From positions 156,860,001 through 156,924,000 of the forward strand of contig NC_042997.1 of assembly GCF_006345805.1 (NCBI RefSeq): 64,000 nucleotides of DNA. Direction: 5' to 3'. A program made the position numbers and the translations under genes. The stretch comes from Octopus sinensis. Its lineage: Eukaryota. Positions 3,725 through 29,870 of this stretch are shown one piece after another. The notes below the pieces were generated by a model. It ran no database searches, was not told the DNA's origin, and saw only the letters and a list, made by a program, of their open reading frames with translations. Positions within the stretch are counted from its first letter, which is position 1. Every line of letters begins with the position of its first letter.

Positions 3725-4000
3725 TATTTCATTTTTGTATTTGGTCTGCAAGATTCTAGATGTGAATTTGTTTGTTGAAGCAAATTATGTTGTGTCTGGA
3801 GAGAGTCATATTGTCTTAATGCTTTATTATCTAACACACTCACTGGTTCGATTTCCACTCATTTATTGTTTATATCTTTTCTTTCAAACTTTGCATTGCT
3901 TTTGCAAAGAAAAAAAAAAGAGTGGAAATCTAACCAGTGATTGTGTTAGATAATAAGGCATTAAAACAATATAACTTTCCCCAGACACAACATAAAATGA
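3725..4000. mobile_element. Foldback repeat family copy 1 (same family as 14283-15025 and 28511-28826), centre deleted
   Basis: Shared leader tttg(g/t)atttggt(c/t)tgcaagattct; arms ~3785-3860 and ~3920-3995 are inverted. Confidence 0.7.
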
Positions 4001-14276: not shown

Positions 14277-14282
14277 GTGTAT

Positions 14283-15025
14283 ATTTCGTTTTTGGATTTG
14301 GTTTGCATGATTCTTTATGTGAGTTCATGTGTTGAAGCATATTTTATTGTGTGTGAGGAAAGTCATTCTCTTTCACTGCTTTATTATTTAACATACTATG
14401 TCCACTGCTAACACCACCCTGGATCCCCAAAGTACCCCGATCCCCAAAGTACCCCGGACCTCGTTGCCCCCGTGCCGCTGACACGTTAAAATGCTCGAAC
14501 CGATCGTGACGATGCCGGACCCTCCGGCCCCTGTGCAGGTGGCACGTAAAAAGCACCCAATCCACTCACGGAGTGGTTGGCGTTAGGAAGGGCATCCAGC
14601 CGTAGAAACTCTGCCAGATTCAGACTGGAGCCTGGAGCGGCCCCTGGCTTCCCAGACCCGGTCGAACCGTCCAACCCGTGCTAGCGCGGAAAGCGGACGT
14701 TAAACGATGATGATGATGATGATGATGATGATACTCACCAGTTTGGTTTCCACTCTCATTTACTTATTTATATTTTCTAAAATTTTCATTGCATCTTGCA
14801 ACCTTTTCGATAGTCATTGACTCTGTCCATTATCTGAGCTGCGTTCTTTCTTGTTTCAAAAGAACGCAGCTTGGGTAATAAACAGAGTCAATGACTATCG
14901 AAAAGGTTGCAAGATGCAATGAAAATTTTAGAAAAAATAAATATGTAAATGAGTGGAAACTAAACTGGTGGGTGTGTTAAATAATAAAGCACTGAAAGAG
15001 AATGACTCTCTCCAGAAGCAACAAT
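14283..15025. mobile_element. Foldback repeat family copy 2 with a nested CpG-rich RTE-tail insertion (~14398-14730)
   Basis: Long inverted arms centred near 14852. The insertion ends in (GAT)n with possible short TSD atact. Confidence 0.75.
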
Positions 15026-16389
15026 ATATATGTATATATTTGATTAATGCAAGAGACGGAAGACGGAAGATACAAGTGTGTTTATTGATCACTACAATAG
15101 TTTTGACCCATCTGGCATTGATCCCTCACAGGCGGGATACTGTACAGCTGATTTAGGAGTATCTGTGAATGTAGATGTGTCTCATATATATATATATATA
15201 AACACACACACACACTCACATACACACACACACACACACATAAAGTTTAAGCAATGTATCACATCAGACCCTTGTTTGATCCCTGAGTTAAAACTTGTTA
15301 AACAAAGTCAACATAAAAATGTGTGGAAAAACAAGTAACAAAATCATATAATCAATTACAATAATATTTCGAGAGGGTGGGGAGGGAGGTGGAAAGCTGC
15401 AGAGCAATGAAAATTGTGAAACCATCCATATTTGCTGTTGGTCAAGCAGAACTGTGATCAAAAGCAATCCAGTCTTTTTGGATATTTATAACTAATTACA
15501 TTGATCAATATGTTCTATTTTTTTTTTCTAAATATGGGTGTGTTTTTAGGGAGACGTATTTGGTTGCTATATTTGGCAGGTTGAGCATCTGTGTCCCGGC
15601 CTACCATACAATTTTAACAATTACGGGTCAATTGGGTGGAAGAAGATCAACAAAGCTTTTAAGAAAATAAAAAAAAAGGCTGGAAATAATTGGCAGTCAT
15701 GAATTTATGGAAATAAATATCAGAAATGATATCACTTTCAACTTGAAGAAAAAGCAAGATTTGTTCTTTACAAAAATATAAGAAGACTTGTACAAAAAAT
15801 AGAAATCATGAAACATTTTATAATTCTTCTTTGATATAATACAATCTAGTTAAACCCTGATCAAGAGCAGAAGACACCCTTGGCACCAAATCTTCCATTC
15901 ATAGCAGTTAACATTCAATAAAAAAAAATAATTAAATTCAAAGTATTTGCAACTATAACTTATTGGCAATCAAATTTTTGGTTAGTTTTTGTTTTTGATG
16001 TCATAAAGCTTCAGTAAACACTGTTTAAGCAGGTTGATCAAGGAAATTAACTGTCTCATATGATACAGAAACTTATCCAAATTTATGTGTCCTAGCTAAG
16101 TGATATTGTTTTTATCATTGGCACACTATTCAAAGATTTAGAATTCAACTCTTTTCTAATTATATATCTAATGAATAGACTGCCAATGAGTTTGAATTAA
16201 TTTTATAACATAATTAACATTTTGGAGGACGTTTAACAAAATATTTCTCTGTCACTTTTATATATTTGCATATATTATGTTGCATATATTATTTGCATAT
16301 ATTATGTTGATGTTAACCAAGTGAAATCTCATGTCATCATTCATATTGTCATCAAATTTTAATTGAGATTTCAATCTAATTATGCATAC

Positions 16390-27058: not shown

Positions 27059-28510
27059 TATTGTAGGGTAAGTATGAGAGGCTGAATCTACCCAGTTCAA
27101 AGATAAATCAGGTAGGTTATTTGGGTTGGATAAAAATCTCTGTTTGTTCATGAATGACCATGGGATTGCATCTAGAAAGTTCCCCTGTGAGGCACAAGTC
27201 CAGGCAAGCTTGTTTATGGTAGACCAGCAGTCATCCATGCATACCAGCCTCCCTTCTCCATGCCACCGATGTTATGCAAGGGCAAAGACTGACACAGCTT
27301 GGCACCAGTGATGTCACAACTCATTTCTACAGCTGAGTGAACTGGAGCAATGTGAAATAACGTGTCTTGCTTAAGAACACAACACATAGCTCGGTCCAAG
27401 AATCGATTGTGAGCCCGATGGTCTAATCACTGATGGCTGGTTTAAATACTAAAGGGTACAAGCACGAATTTTACATCATAAAACCAAGGGAGGTCTCAGG
27501 TGGGATGGTATCAAAATGGTTAAAGCTTAAATGAAACATTCATGTCATCAGTTCTACCAATCTCAGAAGGTCTGCAAAATCTATGGGCATTGTTCCTTCC
27601 TTCAGATCTAGTAACCAAAAAAAAAAAAAAAAAAATGGAAAGATAGAGAGTGAAAAAGAGAGAGGGAGAGAGAGAGAGAGCAAGAGAAAGAGAGAAACAC
27701 ACGCCCACAAACAAACATAGATAAAAATATACATAAGAGGTGGGAGAGACGAGTGAGTAGAGAGATAAATAGTCACACTATGGCTTAGCCATGCTGGTTG
27801 ATAGGTTGAAGGGAAGAAGGGAGAAAGATGTGATTAAAAAAAAAATGATAACATGCATGTGCATCTACATGAGGGTGTGTTTGTGTTTGTGTGTGTGTGT
27901 GTGCTGCGGGTGTGTGTGTGCGGGTGTGTGTGTGCGTGTGTGTGTGTGTGTGTGTGTGAGTGAAGGAGGTTTATAAAAGAACATTGTTGGTGAGAAGAAA
28001 ATAAGTTGTTGGCTGGGAGCCAGGTTCAGTCAAGAGATACAAATAGCATATAATTTTGCCCAGCTGTTGAAAGCAGCTTGCGGAGTGGCATGCTGGACTC
28101 ATATTCAAGTGATTGATGATGTATTGAAGATGGTGGTGACAGCAATGGTGGCGGTGATGATGCTGGTGGTGATGGTGATGATGGTAGTGATGCCGATAGA
28201 GGCGGTTGTGGCGACGGGTGATGGTAGTAACGGTGCTGGTAGTGATGGTAATGATAATGGTGGTGGTGAGAGTGACGGTGGTGCCAATGTTGGTGGTGAA
28301 GGTTGTAGTGGTGACAGTAGTTGCAGTGGTGGTAGTGTGGACAGATTGTTAGCACTGATAATATAGATGTGGAGGGTGAAAGTAGTGGTGGTGATGGAAC
28401 TAAGTGATGGTAGGAGTAGGGATAGAGGTGGTGTGGTAGAGATGGCGATGGAGGTGGCGGTGGTGGTGCCGGTCACTATAAGTGAAACAAAGTAGTAAAC
28501 TAGGCATAAA

Positions 28511-28826
28511 ATTTCGTTTTTGGATTAGGTTTACAAGATTCTTTATGTGAGTTCGTGTGTTGAAGCATATTCTGTTGTGTCTGGGGAGAGTCATTTTCTT
28601 TTTGTACCTTATAATATAACACACACACCGGTAAAATTTCCACTTTTTTTTCTCATTTTTATTTTCCTAAAATTTTCATTGCGTCTTGCAACCTTTTCAA
28701 TAGTTTTGACTCTGTCCGTTATTTAGGAAAATAAAAATAAGGAAAAAAAGTGGAAATTTTACCGGTGAGTGTGATATATTATGAGGCACAAAAAGAAAAT
28801 GACTCTCCCCAGACACAACAGAATAG
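28511..28826. mobile_element. Foldback repeat family copy 3
   Basis: Arms ~28568-28670 and ~28722-28825 are inverted; same 5' leader as the other copies. Confidence 0.75.
28667..28703 (-). ncRNA. Variant minimal hammerhead motif (U3-A8 core)
   Basis: CTA-TTGAAAA-G-GTTGC(AAGAC)GCAAT-GAA-AATT-T-TAG on the minus strand; same architecture as the 29439 motif. Confidence 0.55.
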
Positions 28827-29438
28827 TCATAAAATGTTTCTTTTGAAAGTACCATTTTCTTCCCCAGATATGCCGCCCACCATATGTATTTTACAGGTCA
28901 TAACTGTCACAGACTCTTCTAAGTTGGTGGAGGCTTATACCTTGTTCTTGTTGTTTAGTATCCAAGTTAGTAGACCTGTGGTTGAGACCTATGAACCAAG
29001 GCATTCCAGATTCCAGCCATGGAAGTCCATTTTTCTTCAGGCAAAGTTTATAAGACACACATTATCAAATGTGTTCTTCTCTTTTAGGTGGTAATGGTGT
29101 GATTTGAGAAAGGTTTGGCTAATATTTCTAGCAGGTATAATGAAGACATAGAAGTATCCTTAATGGTTTGATAGGTTAATGATACTTGTTGACACAATTT
29201 AAAGGTCATTCCCGAAATTGCACAGATCAACAATTAGAATGCTAGGAAAGGTTTCCCTATGAGGAAGGACTGTGTATAGTTCTATATGGAGTTGGGGTGG
29301 AGTAAAACAAGACAGTAGAGGAAAGGCATGAAGGGAATCTGTTGTACTTTTGTTGCTAAGCAATAATGTGACCGCGTGTGTACCGTTGGTGATTTTTTTT
29401 CCTCCATCTTCCCATCTTTGGATCTTTCCTTTTTCTAT

Positions 29439-29473
29439 GTTTCTGATGAAGAGCTCCGCTCGAAACGTTAAAC
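29439..29473 (+). ncRNA. Minimal type I hammerhead ribozyme motif within a ~225-bp Penelope-pLTR-like repeat (~29356-29580)
   Basis: GTTT-CTGATGA-A-GAGC(TCC)GCTC-GAA-ACGT-T-AAAC: intact core, stems I and II, palindromic stem III (ACGT). Confidence 0.8.
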
Positions 29474-29870
29474 CCTCCTTCTTCCCTTCCTTTCTGAGCG
29501 TCCAATAATACTATATTTGTTCCACGTCCTTGCGTTGTGTTTTCTCTTTGTGTTTTCATGTTTGGATTAACTTTATATACATATATAGTTTGTTAAGTGT
29601 TGACACACAAAACTCTTGGCCCTTGAGTCACTGCTGTTTCTGGTAAATATTGGTTTCAAAATTTGGCACAAGGTCAGCAAGTTGAGGAGTGGGTGCAAGT
29701 CAATTACATTGACCCAGTGTTAAACTAGTACTTATTTTATTAACTTTGAAAGGATAAAAGGCAAATTTGATCCTGTTGGAATTTGAACTCAGAACATAAA
29801 GATTGATGAAATACGACTAAGCATTTTGCCTGGCATACTAAATGATTCTGCTAGCTCACTGTCTGCTTCT

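What the first reader, a model, noticed from the sequence alone, without database searches (positions are those of the whole stretch)
28511..28826. Foldback repeat family hides a variant hammerhead ribozyme with a compensatory U3-A8 core
Seen: three copies of one family (3725-4000, 14283-15025, 28511-28826) share an unpaired ~55-bp leader, but their inverted arms turn back at different points, unlike a fixed-TIR MITE. At 28667-28703 the minus strand reads CTA-TTGAAAA-G-GTTGC(AAGAC)GCAAT-GAA-AATT-T-TAG. That gives stem I CTA/TAG, a 5-bp stem II, G12A13A14 and a palindromic stem III (AATT), the same layout as the canonical motif at 29439 but with CUGAUGA replaced by UUGAAAA. Established: C3 and G8 form a tertiary Watson-Crick pair in hammerheads, so U3-A8 is compensatory; Penelope-like elements carry minimal hammerheads and often leave inverted terminal copies. 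Inference: a non-autonomous Penelope-dependent ribozyme family that CUGANGA-based searches would miss.
Basis: partly seen in the sequence, partly recalled or inferred. Interest (0 to 1): 0.8.

Follow-up and report, generated by a model that had tools for sequence, protein, structure and literature searches.

The report
Penelope retrotransposon end with variant hammerhead
This hairpin repeat is the broken-off end of a Penelope-like jumping gene that carries a hammerhead-shaped, likely self-cutting RNA motif with a swapped core base pair (U-A for C-G), a variant already published from blood flukes, so it is a new example of a known thing.

Summary
The motif is real, but it is a known variant and the family is not non-autonomous. 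The repeat is the terminal repeat (pLTR) of a protein-coding Penelope-like element (RT plus GIY-YIG, all examined copies broken), with at least 2,826 core copies in G000. In 92 of the first 100, the core is U3-A8. Related elements carry a hammerhead at the same place with different stems, and the 3-8 pair is Watson-Crick in 8 of 8 lineages (3 U-A, 5 C-G). Cervera and de la Peña (2014) already reported U3-A8 in schistosome Penelope elements, with the same UUGAAAA core. The '55-bp leader' is the known Penelope 'tail'. The foldbacks look like separate, doubly primed, 5'-truncated insertions: tail on one arm only in 111 of 121, about 10-bp target duplications, and variable junctions. Small new points: older subfamilies carry U3·G8, suggesting the path C-G to U·G to U-A, and cDNA ends pile up just upstream of the motif, not at its cut site. 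Cleavage is untested. The window copy is probably dead.

The parts
28503..28512 (+). Left target-site duplication (9 of 10 letters match 28826-28835; the last two overlap the element end)
   Evidence: family-wide duplications
28511..28566 (-).
   Evidence: two discrete 3' ends at about +124-130 and +185-192 from U3; unpaired in the fold; homologous tail in sister family B
28511..28723 (-). Long arm: 5'-truncated pLTR copy running from about 23 nt upstream of U3 to the tail end
28567..28594 (-). Likely start of the element's ORF (ATG at 28594, 106 nt downstream of U3), up to the short 3' end
   Evidence: other copies continue from here into the ORF N-terminus
28667..28703 (-). Type I minimal hammerhead: stem I CTA/TAG, core U3-U4-G5-A6-A7-A8-A9 (U3 = 28700), extra G, stem II GTTGC/GCAAT (family GCAAC), GAA, palindromic AATT, U17 (28670); predicted cut between 28670 and 28669
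28721..28825 (+). Short arm: inverted 5'-truncated pLTR copy from about +29/+30 to the short 3' end (ATG at 28799); in a foldback transcript it is predicted to pair with U16.1, U17 and the 3' strand of stem I
28826..28835 (+). Right target-site duplication
14282..15029 (.). Second foldback of the family: tail on the left, motif on both arms (U3 at 14810 minus and 14898 plus) with U4 changed to C, and another repeat inserted in the left arm
3725..3999 (.). Third foldback: tail on the left, both arms truncated inside or downstream of the motif, no core

Best explanation
The repeat is the terminal repeat of a protein-coding Penelope-like retrotransposon, and the motif is that element's minimal hammerhead with a U3-A8 core, predicted to cut weakly and only as a dimer or with the element's protein. 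SHOWN: the motif lies on the sense strand after the ORF stop and about 105 nt before the next ORF start; relatives keep the same fold there with other letters. INFERRED mechanism of the foldbacks: the endonuclease nicks both DNA strands about 10 bp apart. One nick primes reverse transcription at the downstream start site (tail end), the other at the upstream site (short end). Both cDNAs stop early, often just upstream of the motif (likely the RNA's 5' end), and are joined head to head. Each foldback is then a separate dead-on-arrival insertion, not a replicating ribozyme unit. INFERRED history: C3-G8 (as in sister family B) changed to U3·G8 in older subfamilies and to U3-A8 in younger ones. 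INFERRED: most templates copied into the genome were uncut.
For: Coding parent: copies continue into an ORF with RT motifs and a GIY-YIG domain above the Pfam cut-off (28.8 vs 22.6 bits); L068 has the motif on both sides of the ORF. A model of the sister protein (pLDDT 86.8) hits telomerase RTs first. Motif in relatives: one sense-strand hit in 6 of 10 metagenome loci examined, in family A (two subfamilies) and in family B; 0 antisense hits; 0 of 300 shuffles for each region long enough to shuffle. The 3-8 pair, left free, is U-A in 3 and C-G in 5 of 8 lineages. Family A is sister (with P0008) to C3-G8 family B, SH-aLRT 100 on a quick tree, and 12 of the first 100 family-B matches have a fully canonical CUGAUGA. 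Across three family-A subfamilies 1 of 32 structured positions varies (position 8) against 26 of 118 flank positions; oldest vs youngest p = 0.01. G8 falls with age: 4/4, 6/12, 1/11, 4/128 in classes 9.8, 10.2, 6.9, 5.3% diverged. Foldbacks: tail plus short end in 111 of 121 (65 of 68 in the set chosen without the motif); shared flank word of 8 nt or more in 47 of 86 against 1.7% of shuffled pairs. cDNA 5' ends: 85 of 228 at -16 to +5, only 5 at +29 to +33. Literature: PMC4209133, PMC11167929, PMC3846280.
Against: No cleavage was tested and no raw RNA reads were offered. No excess of 5' ends at the predicted cut site (1.0 per nt against 1.5 per nt downstream). Stem I is only 3 bp (pair probability 0.17-0.29). 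The youngest, near-intact family-B copies carry A9 to C and U17, so this core can drift in a successful element. 4 of 10 metagenome loci gave no motif (one has only 6 nt of 3' flank), and 2 of 12 were not examined. Stem pairing is required by a descriptor tuned after the fact. Old-class samples are small (97 of 252 arms unclassified), many loci were picked by the motif itself, and middle vs oldest subfamily alone is not significant (p = 0.27). The protein tree does not fix the order of core changes: L068 (A8) groups with L213 (G8). No intact family-A ORF was found among the loci examined.
Confidence: 0.85

Rival explanations
1. The motif descends from a hammerhead but no longer cuts; the fold is kept for another job, such as a downstream element of the internal promoter or a binding site for the element's protein.
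For: No 5'-end excess at the cut site. 5' ends pile up 2-16 nt upstream of the core, where an internal promoter would start (Penelope has an internal promoter, PMC2377424 passages). An U3·G8 state persisted in amplifying subfamilies. The young sister subfamily has C9. Hammerhead mutants of the anole element still insert in vitro, and no RNA ends were seen at its cut site (PMC11167929).
Against: Watson-Crick covariation at 3-8 in 8 of 8 lineages, with G5, A6, G12, A13, A14 required and found in place, and a palindromic stem III in 6 of 8, is what selection on the catalytic geometry predicts. Natural U3-A8 covariation is reported, and such cores were shown active in vitro (PMC3088659 passage).
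Confidence: 0.3
2. The foldbacks are a non-autonomous, retrozyme- or MITE-like family that is transcribed and mobilised as a unit by the Penelope protein.
For: Thousands of short copies; some size classes recur (8, 5 and 3 of 101); arms within a foldback are somewhat more alike than arms of different foldbacks (6.1 vs 7.8 differences in 63 nt); animal retrozymes are proposed to derive from pLTRs (bioRxiv 10.64898/2026.07.22.740005).
Against: 79 junction classes among 101, and the recurring classes differ at the junction. The sequence matches the coding element's pLTR. Many foldbacks lack the core, and in the window copy the long hairpin is predicted to bury U17 and stem I. Retrozymes as defined in that preprint are head-to-tail tandem arrays; these copies are head-to-head.
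Confidence: 0.08
3. Same parent element, but the inverted arm arises by self-priming or template switching at the small palindrome upstream of the core, not by priming at two nicks.
For: Many junctions fall on the AGTC...GACT micro-palindrome at -11 to -3; self-priming on an antisense template was proposed for rotifer Penelope (PMC3846280); shared private variants on both arms of the 14283 copy.
Against: A plain snap-back copy would end at the same 3' point as its template, yet the two arms end at the two different fixed sites in 111 of 121 cases; solo copies also end at -13 to -9; the anole protein nicks and extends both strands in vitro (PMC11167929).
Confidence: 0.2
4. Chance resemblance to a hammerhead inside an ordinary repeat or DNA-transposon MITE.
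For: No Rfam match; folding z-score only -0.93.
Against: Same fold at the same place in 8 lineages with different stem letters, no shuffled hits; RT/GIY-YIG parent, asymmetric ends, variable junctions.
Confidence: 0.01

Closest known systems
Minimal hammerheads of metazoan Penelope-like elements, U3-A8 variant of Schistosoma mansoni Cercyon (Cervera and de la Peña 2014, PMC4209133)
   Same: Type I, short stem I, extra base between 9 and 10.1, G10.1-C11.1, palindromic stem III, place in the pLTR. Their row S. mansoni(4) has the same UUGAAAA core and U17; their row Saccoglossus(1) has UUGAAGA, the U3·G8 state seen here in old subfamilies.
   Different: Other host and other Penelope clade; stem III is a 4-nt AAUU palindrome; here an age series from U·G to U-A can be followed within one genome. 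None of the Fig. S3 rows I read has C at position 9, as family B and L216 do.
Canonical endonuclease-bearing Penelope-like elements with pLTR, inverted pLTR and tail (D. virilis Penelope, Adineta Pen2a, anole Poseidon PAc; PMC3846280, PMC8557442, PMC11167929)
   Same: Single ORF with RT then GIY-YIG, pLTR overlapping the ORF start, tail on one end only, inverted 5'-truncated copy, 8-10 bp target duplications, AT-rich targets.
   Different: Tail about 56 nt rather than 30-40; the hammerhead lies wholly upstream of the ATG (in PAc the ORF starts inside it); most copies here are ORF-less pairs of truncated pLTRs.
Nematis and Neptune clades (C-terminal endonuclease with a CX2-5CxxC linker; PMC8557442)
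   Same: Linker C-x4-C-xx-C present; CCHH-type endonuclease residues; (TA)n flanks in part of the copies. By eye the short 7-residue spacer and the IVEKPG stretch match the Nematis rows of the paper's alignments, not the Neptune rows.
   Different: RT motif A to B' spacing is 128-130 aa against 55-57 in distant Penelope-type hits; the Nematis and Neptune rows in Fig. S1 have no such insert.
Animal non-LTR retrozymes (bioRxiv 10.64898/2026.07.22.740005)
   Same: Short, non-coding, hammerhead-bearing, proposed to derive from pLTRs.
   Different: Retrozymes are head-to-tail tandem units; these are head-to-head pairs with variable junctions and no sign of unit amplification.

Membership tests
Penelope-type minimal hammerhead | Core N3-U4-G5-A6-N7-N8-A9 ... 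G12-A13-A14, A15.1-U16.1, H17 with a Watson-Crick 3-8 pair | tested here: met
   U3-A8 in 92 of the first 100 matches
Penelope-type minimal hammerhead | Extra base after 9, G10.1-C11.1, palindromic stem III, short stem I | tested here: met
   family form meets all; the window copy has C11.1 changed to U
Penelope-type minimal hammerhead | Covariation or conservation of stems above flanks | tested here: met
   different stem letters in 8 lineages (pairing required by the descriptor); 1 of 32 vs 26 of 118 variable positions among subfamilies
Penelope-type minimal hammerhead | Sense strand, in the pLTR of a Penelope-like element | tested here: met
Penelope-type minimal hammerhead | Self-cleavage after position 17 (as dimer or protein-assisted) | not testable with these tools
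   no assay; no excess of genomic 5' ends at the site
Endonuclease-bearing Penelope-like element | Single ORF with telomerase-like RT and C-terminal GIY-YIG | tested here: met
   model of the 60%-identical sister protein hits TERT first; family-A copies examined are frameshifted or broken
Endonuclease-bearing Penelope-like element | pLTR, inverted truncated copy, optional tail, short target duplication | tested here: met
Nematis clade | CX2-5CxxC linker with short spacer before the endonuclease | tested here: met
   by eye against Fig. S2 rows of PMC8557442
Nematis clade | Groups with reference Nematis RTs in a tree; no insertion in fingers | tested here: inconclusive
   no reference sequences in the tree; a ~70-aa insert is present, so I do not file it as a member
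Neptune clade | Long (about 25-30 aa) spacer after the CxxC linker, as in the Neptune rows of Fig. S2 | tested here: not met
   spacer is 7 aa
Non-LTR retrozyme / non-autonomous unit | Head-to-tail tandem units or a fixed unit copied whole | tested here: not met
   head-to-head, 79 junction classes of 101
MITE (DNA transposon) | Fixed terminal inverted repeats at both ends | tested here: not met
   ends are asymmetric (tail vs short) in 111 of 121

The most novel reading that the evidence does not exclude
These thousands of foldbacks are a genome-scale record of how Penelope elements insert: an obligate two-ended reaction in which two nicks about 10 bp apart each use a different fixed start site on an uncut RNA, while the ribozyme's 3-8 pair walked from C-G through U·G to U-A under selection, in an unnamed Penelope lineage that joins a telomerase-like insertion in fingers to a C-terminal endonuclease and still has near-intact copies (family B) to test it with.
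Probability: 0.35. Interest if true: 0.6.

Novelty: new member of a known kind. Interest (0 to 1): 0.3.

Why it matters
As a ribozyme find it adds one more host and clade to a variant known since 2014. Its use is as a test system. The role of hammerheads in Penelope elements is open (PMC8557442 passage), and this genome holds natural C3-G8, U3·G8, U3-A8 and C9 versions in dated subfamilies for side-by-side assays. The foldback counts give numbers for a structure so far described case by case: the two reverse-transcription start sites are used as a pair, and copied RNAs mostly run through the cut site. It also warns that such foldbacks can be mis-annotated as MITEs or miRNA hairpins.

Tried and rejected
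Rfam scan: no hammerhead family at E<=1. An open frame through the motif, noticed early, was dropped: it lies in the 3' UTR after the endonuclease stop. CpG origin of U3-U4-G5 rejected: 95 of the first 100 matches have T at 3, and the 122 C3 copies are almost all C3·A8 point mutants, only 5 of the first 100 being C3-G8. In vivo cleavage signature: the window's short arm starts at +29/+30, near the cut site, but 228 arms show no peak there. My working label 'Neptune' was dropped after reading the alignments. Sequencing runs: no RNA holder listed, contigs only. Laying four runs showed the repeat in runs labelled as four organisms and no listed variant at positions 3 or 8, but 12 rows were not shown and contigs cannot show RNA ends. 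One fold used wrong coordinates (L232) and is ignored. The careful tree did not finish; the quick tree is used. The 29443 hammerhead belongs to an unrelated repeat of about 220 bp; no match to the family-B protein within 1.5 kb in 12 loci. PDB sequence searches found no Penelope protein. Earlier scan findings: nothing relevant. Lünse et al. 2017 (dimeric Penelope hammerhead variants) is not held; it may already list these variants, including C9.

Full report
OBSERVATION. BLAST inside the window finds the three copies and their inverted arms. A descriptor with positions 3, 4, 7, 8, 9 and the extra base left free finds four sites in the window (three of this family plus 29443) and none in 10 shuffled windows; I tuned it after seeing the sequences. 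RNAfold gives stems I and II, but not more stably than shuffles. Rfam sees no hammerhead here.

THE FAMILY. The window lies in a 2.7-Gb genome (G000). An exact core pattern matches 2,826 places, its reversed control none. Among the first 100 listed, counted by eye, 92 are U3-A8, 3 are U3·G8, 5 have C3, and 88 close stem II with G-C. A C3 pattern gives 122 matches, of whose first 100 only 5 are C3-G8. A G8 pattern gives 98, about half with a different loop letter, marking a subfamily. Of 93 ungapped arms chosen without regard to the motif, 26 keep every feature, as expected for decaying copies.

THE PARENT. Some copies run on past the 'leader' into an ORF. L064 holds a frameshifted ORF with RT motifs and a GIY-YIG domain above the Pfam cut-off, followed by a 3' UTR and the motif; L068 has the motif on both sides of the ORF. 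The likely ATG lies about 105 nt downstream of U3 (28594 in the window). Homologues number 103; the nearest named one is an Octopus bimaculoides protein at 60%. A search with it revealed sister family B in G000, 60% identical in protein, with copies 95-99% identical to each other and open frames up to 1,120 codons. A model of its RT-endonuclease part (pLDDT 86.8) matches telomerase RTs first. So the repeat is the pLTR of a coding Penelope-like element. The endonuclease linker looks like Nematis rather than Neptune by eye, but the RT has about 70 extra residues between motifs A and B', so I leave the clade open.

IS IT A HAMMERHEAD? Twelve metagenome loci encode relatives; ten reach the ORF end and were scanned. 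Six have one sense-strand motif shortly after the stop, four have none (one has only 6 nt of flank). With families A and B this gives eight lineages with different letters in stems I, II and III. The 3-8 pair was left free and is U-A in three (A, L216, L219) and C-G in five (B, L220, L221, L223, L224). There were no antisense hits and no hits in 300 shuffles per region. On a quick tree A is sister, with P0008, to B (SH-aLRT 100), while L216 and L219 lie apart, so the pair changed more than once; direction is not fixed. Family B has 2,748 core matches; 12 of the first 100 are canonical CUGAUGA, most others have C9. Among three family-A subfamilies (71 of 82 aligned copies classed), 1 of 32 structured positions varies, position 8, against 26 of 118 in the flanks. 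Classes defined by flank letters alone show G8 in 4/4, 6/12, 1/11 and 4/128 arms at 9.8, 10.2, 6.9 and 5.3% divergence; without the loci picked by the G8 pattern the counts are 3/3, 2/8, 1/11 and 1/124; 97 of 252 arms were unclassified. This suggests, on small numbers, C-G to U·G to U-A.

THE FOLDBACKS. Family B has the same two ends. In 111 of 121 inverted pairs one arm has the tail and the other does not (65 of 68 in the set chosen by a downstream anchor only). In 47 of 86 pairs with non-microsatellite flanks the two flanks share a word of 8 or more letters, against 1.7% of mismatched pairs; the window copy has a 9-of-10 duplication. Each foldback is therefore one insertion. Junctions vary: 79 classes among 101 compact foldbacks, and the three largest classes differ letter by letter. 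For 228 arms from the anchor-only set (70 loci and 90, all on contig C1), 85 5' ends lie at -16 to +5 and 30 run further upstream; only 5 lie at +29 to +33 around the predicted cut. The pile-up may be the RNA start or the small palindrome there; I cannot separate these. In a transcript of the window foldback the long hairpin is predicted to bury U17 and stem I.

MECHANISM. Inferred: two nicks about 10 bp apart, each priming from one of two start sites, early termination, head-to-head joining. This fits the anole Poseidon protein, which nicks and extends both strands, starts at two internal sites that bound the tail, has a hammerhead that cuts only with protein, and inserts without cleavage (PMC11167929). 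That paper saw no strand difference in start-site use in bulk, so the strict pairing seen here is not explained by it. Cleavage by this motif is untested; I put it at about 0.65 that the ancestral form cuts in vitro as a dimer or with protein. Against: weak stem I, no cut-site signature, and C9 in the youngest family-B copies.

COMPARISON. Cervera and de la Peña reported U3-A8 in about 1,300 schistosome Cercyon motifs, the extra base, G10.1-C11.1, the palindrome and low dimer activity; their Fig. S3 includes the same UUGAAAA core with U17 and a UUGAAGA row. Natural U3-A8 covariation is also in PMC3088659. Tail, inverted pLTR and 8-10 bp duplications are in PMC3846280 and PMC8557442. Searches for this motif in octopus, for A9C in Penelope hammerheads and for U3-A8/C3U/G8A found no description of this family; the library lacks most subscription journals and Repbase, so this is weak.

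WHAT I READ. PMC4209133: parts 1-2 of 4 and supplement parts 1-2 of 3 (text only). PMC11167929: parts 1-2 of 4. PMC8557442: passages, supplement part 54 of 59 and search hits. PMC3846280, PMC2377424, PMC3088659, PMC6765202, PMC7151607, PMC6155905: passages. bioRxiv 10.64898/2026.07.22.740005: part 1 of 5 and passages, no supplements. Lünse et al. 2017: not held, seen only as cited in PMC6765202. Hammerhead numbering follows these papers; 'SINE-like' for the insert in the 14283 copy is my recollection.

VERDICT. Real feature, correctly spotted, but a new member of a known kind; 'non-autonomous family' is not supported. Interest 0.3.

Noticed in passing
L196:2210-5341 (+), L197-L203, L214, L215 (G000): Sister family B: young Penelope-like element, copies 95-99% identical, open frames up to 1,120 codons, 2,748 core matches; the younger subfamily has C at core position 9 and U17, the older one canonical CUGAUGA with C17. 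L216 also has C9.
   Followed up: partly
L196 protein, RT motifs A to B': About 70 extra residues (128-130 vs 55-57) in the position of the telomerase insertion in fingers, in an element with a C-terminal endonuclease; PMC8557442 says canonical C-terminal elements lack such an insert. Shared at least with the sea-cucumber hit P0047.
   Followed up: partly
family A, -16 to +5 from U3 (window 28716-28695): Strong pile-up of cDNA 5' ends just upstream of the core (85 of 228 arms), at an AGTC that could be a transcription start or a palindrome-guided junction.
   Followed up: partly
window 29366-29588 (+): Unrelated high-copy repeat of about 220 bp (40 of 40 scored hits 93% or more identical) with a canonical minimal hammerhead at 29440-29472; parent element not found within 1.5 kb in 12 loci.
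   Followed up: partly
L206:937-1690 (+): Three tandem units of 352 bp, each with a canonical type I hammerhead (6-bp stem I, 8-nt palindromic stem III): retrozyme-like array.
   Followed up: no
L221:4970-5010 and L220:1680-1720: Further core variants in metagenome relatives: U15.1-A16.1 in L221 and G at position 4 in L220 (single copies, could be mutations).
   Followed up: no
L056, L061, L063, L196 ORF N-terminal halves: Long asparagine-rich stretches inside the ORF upstream of the RT in both families, recalling the N-rich inserts described for rotifer Penelope (PMC3846280).
   Followed up: no
window 14410-14733: A copy of an abundant SINE-like repeat (at least 8 copies in the window) inserted into the left arm of the second foldback.
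   Followed up: no
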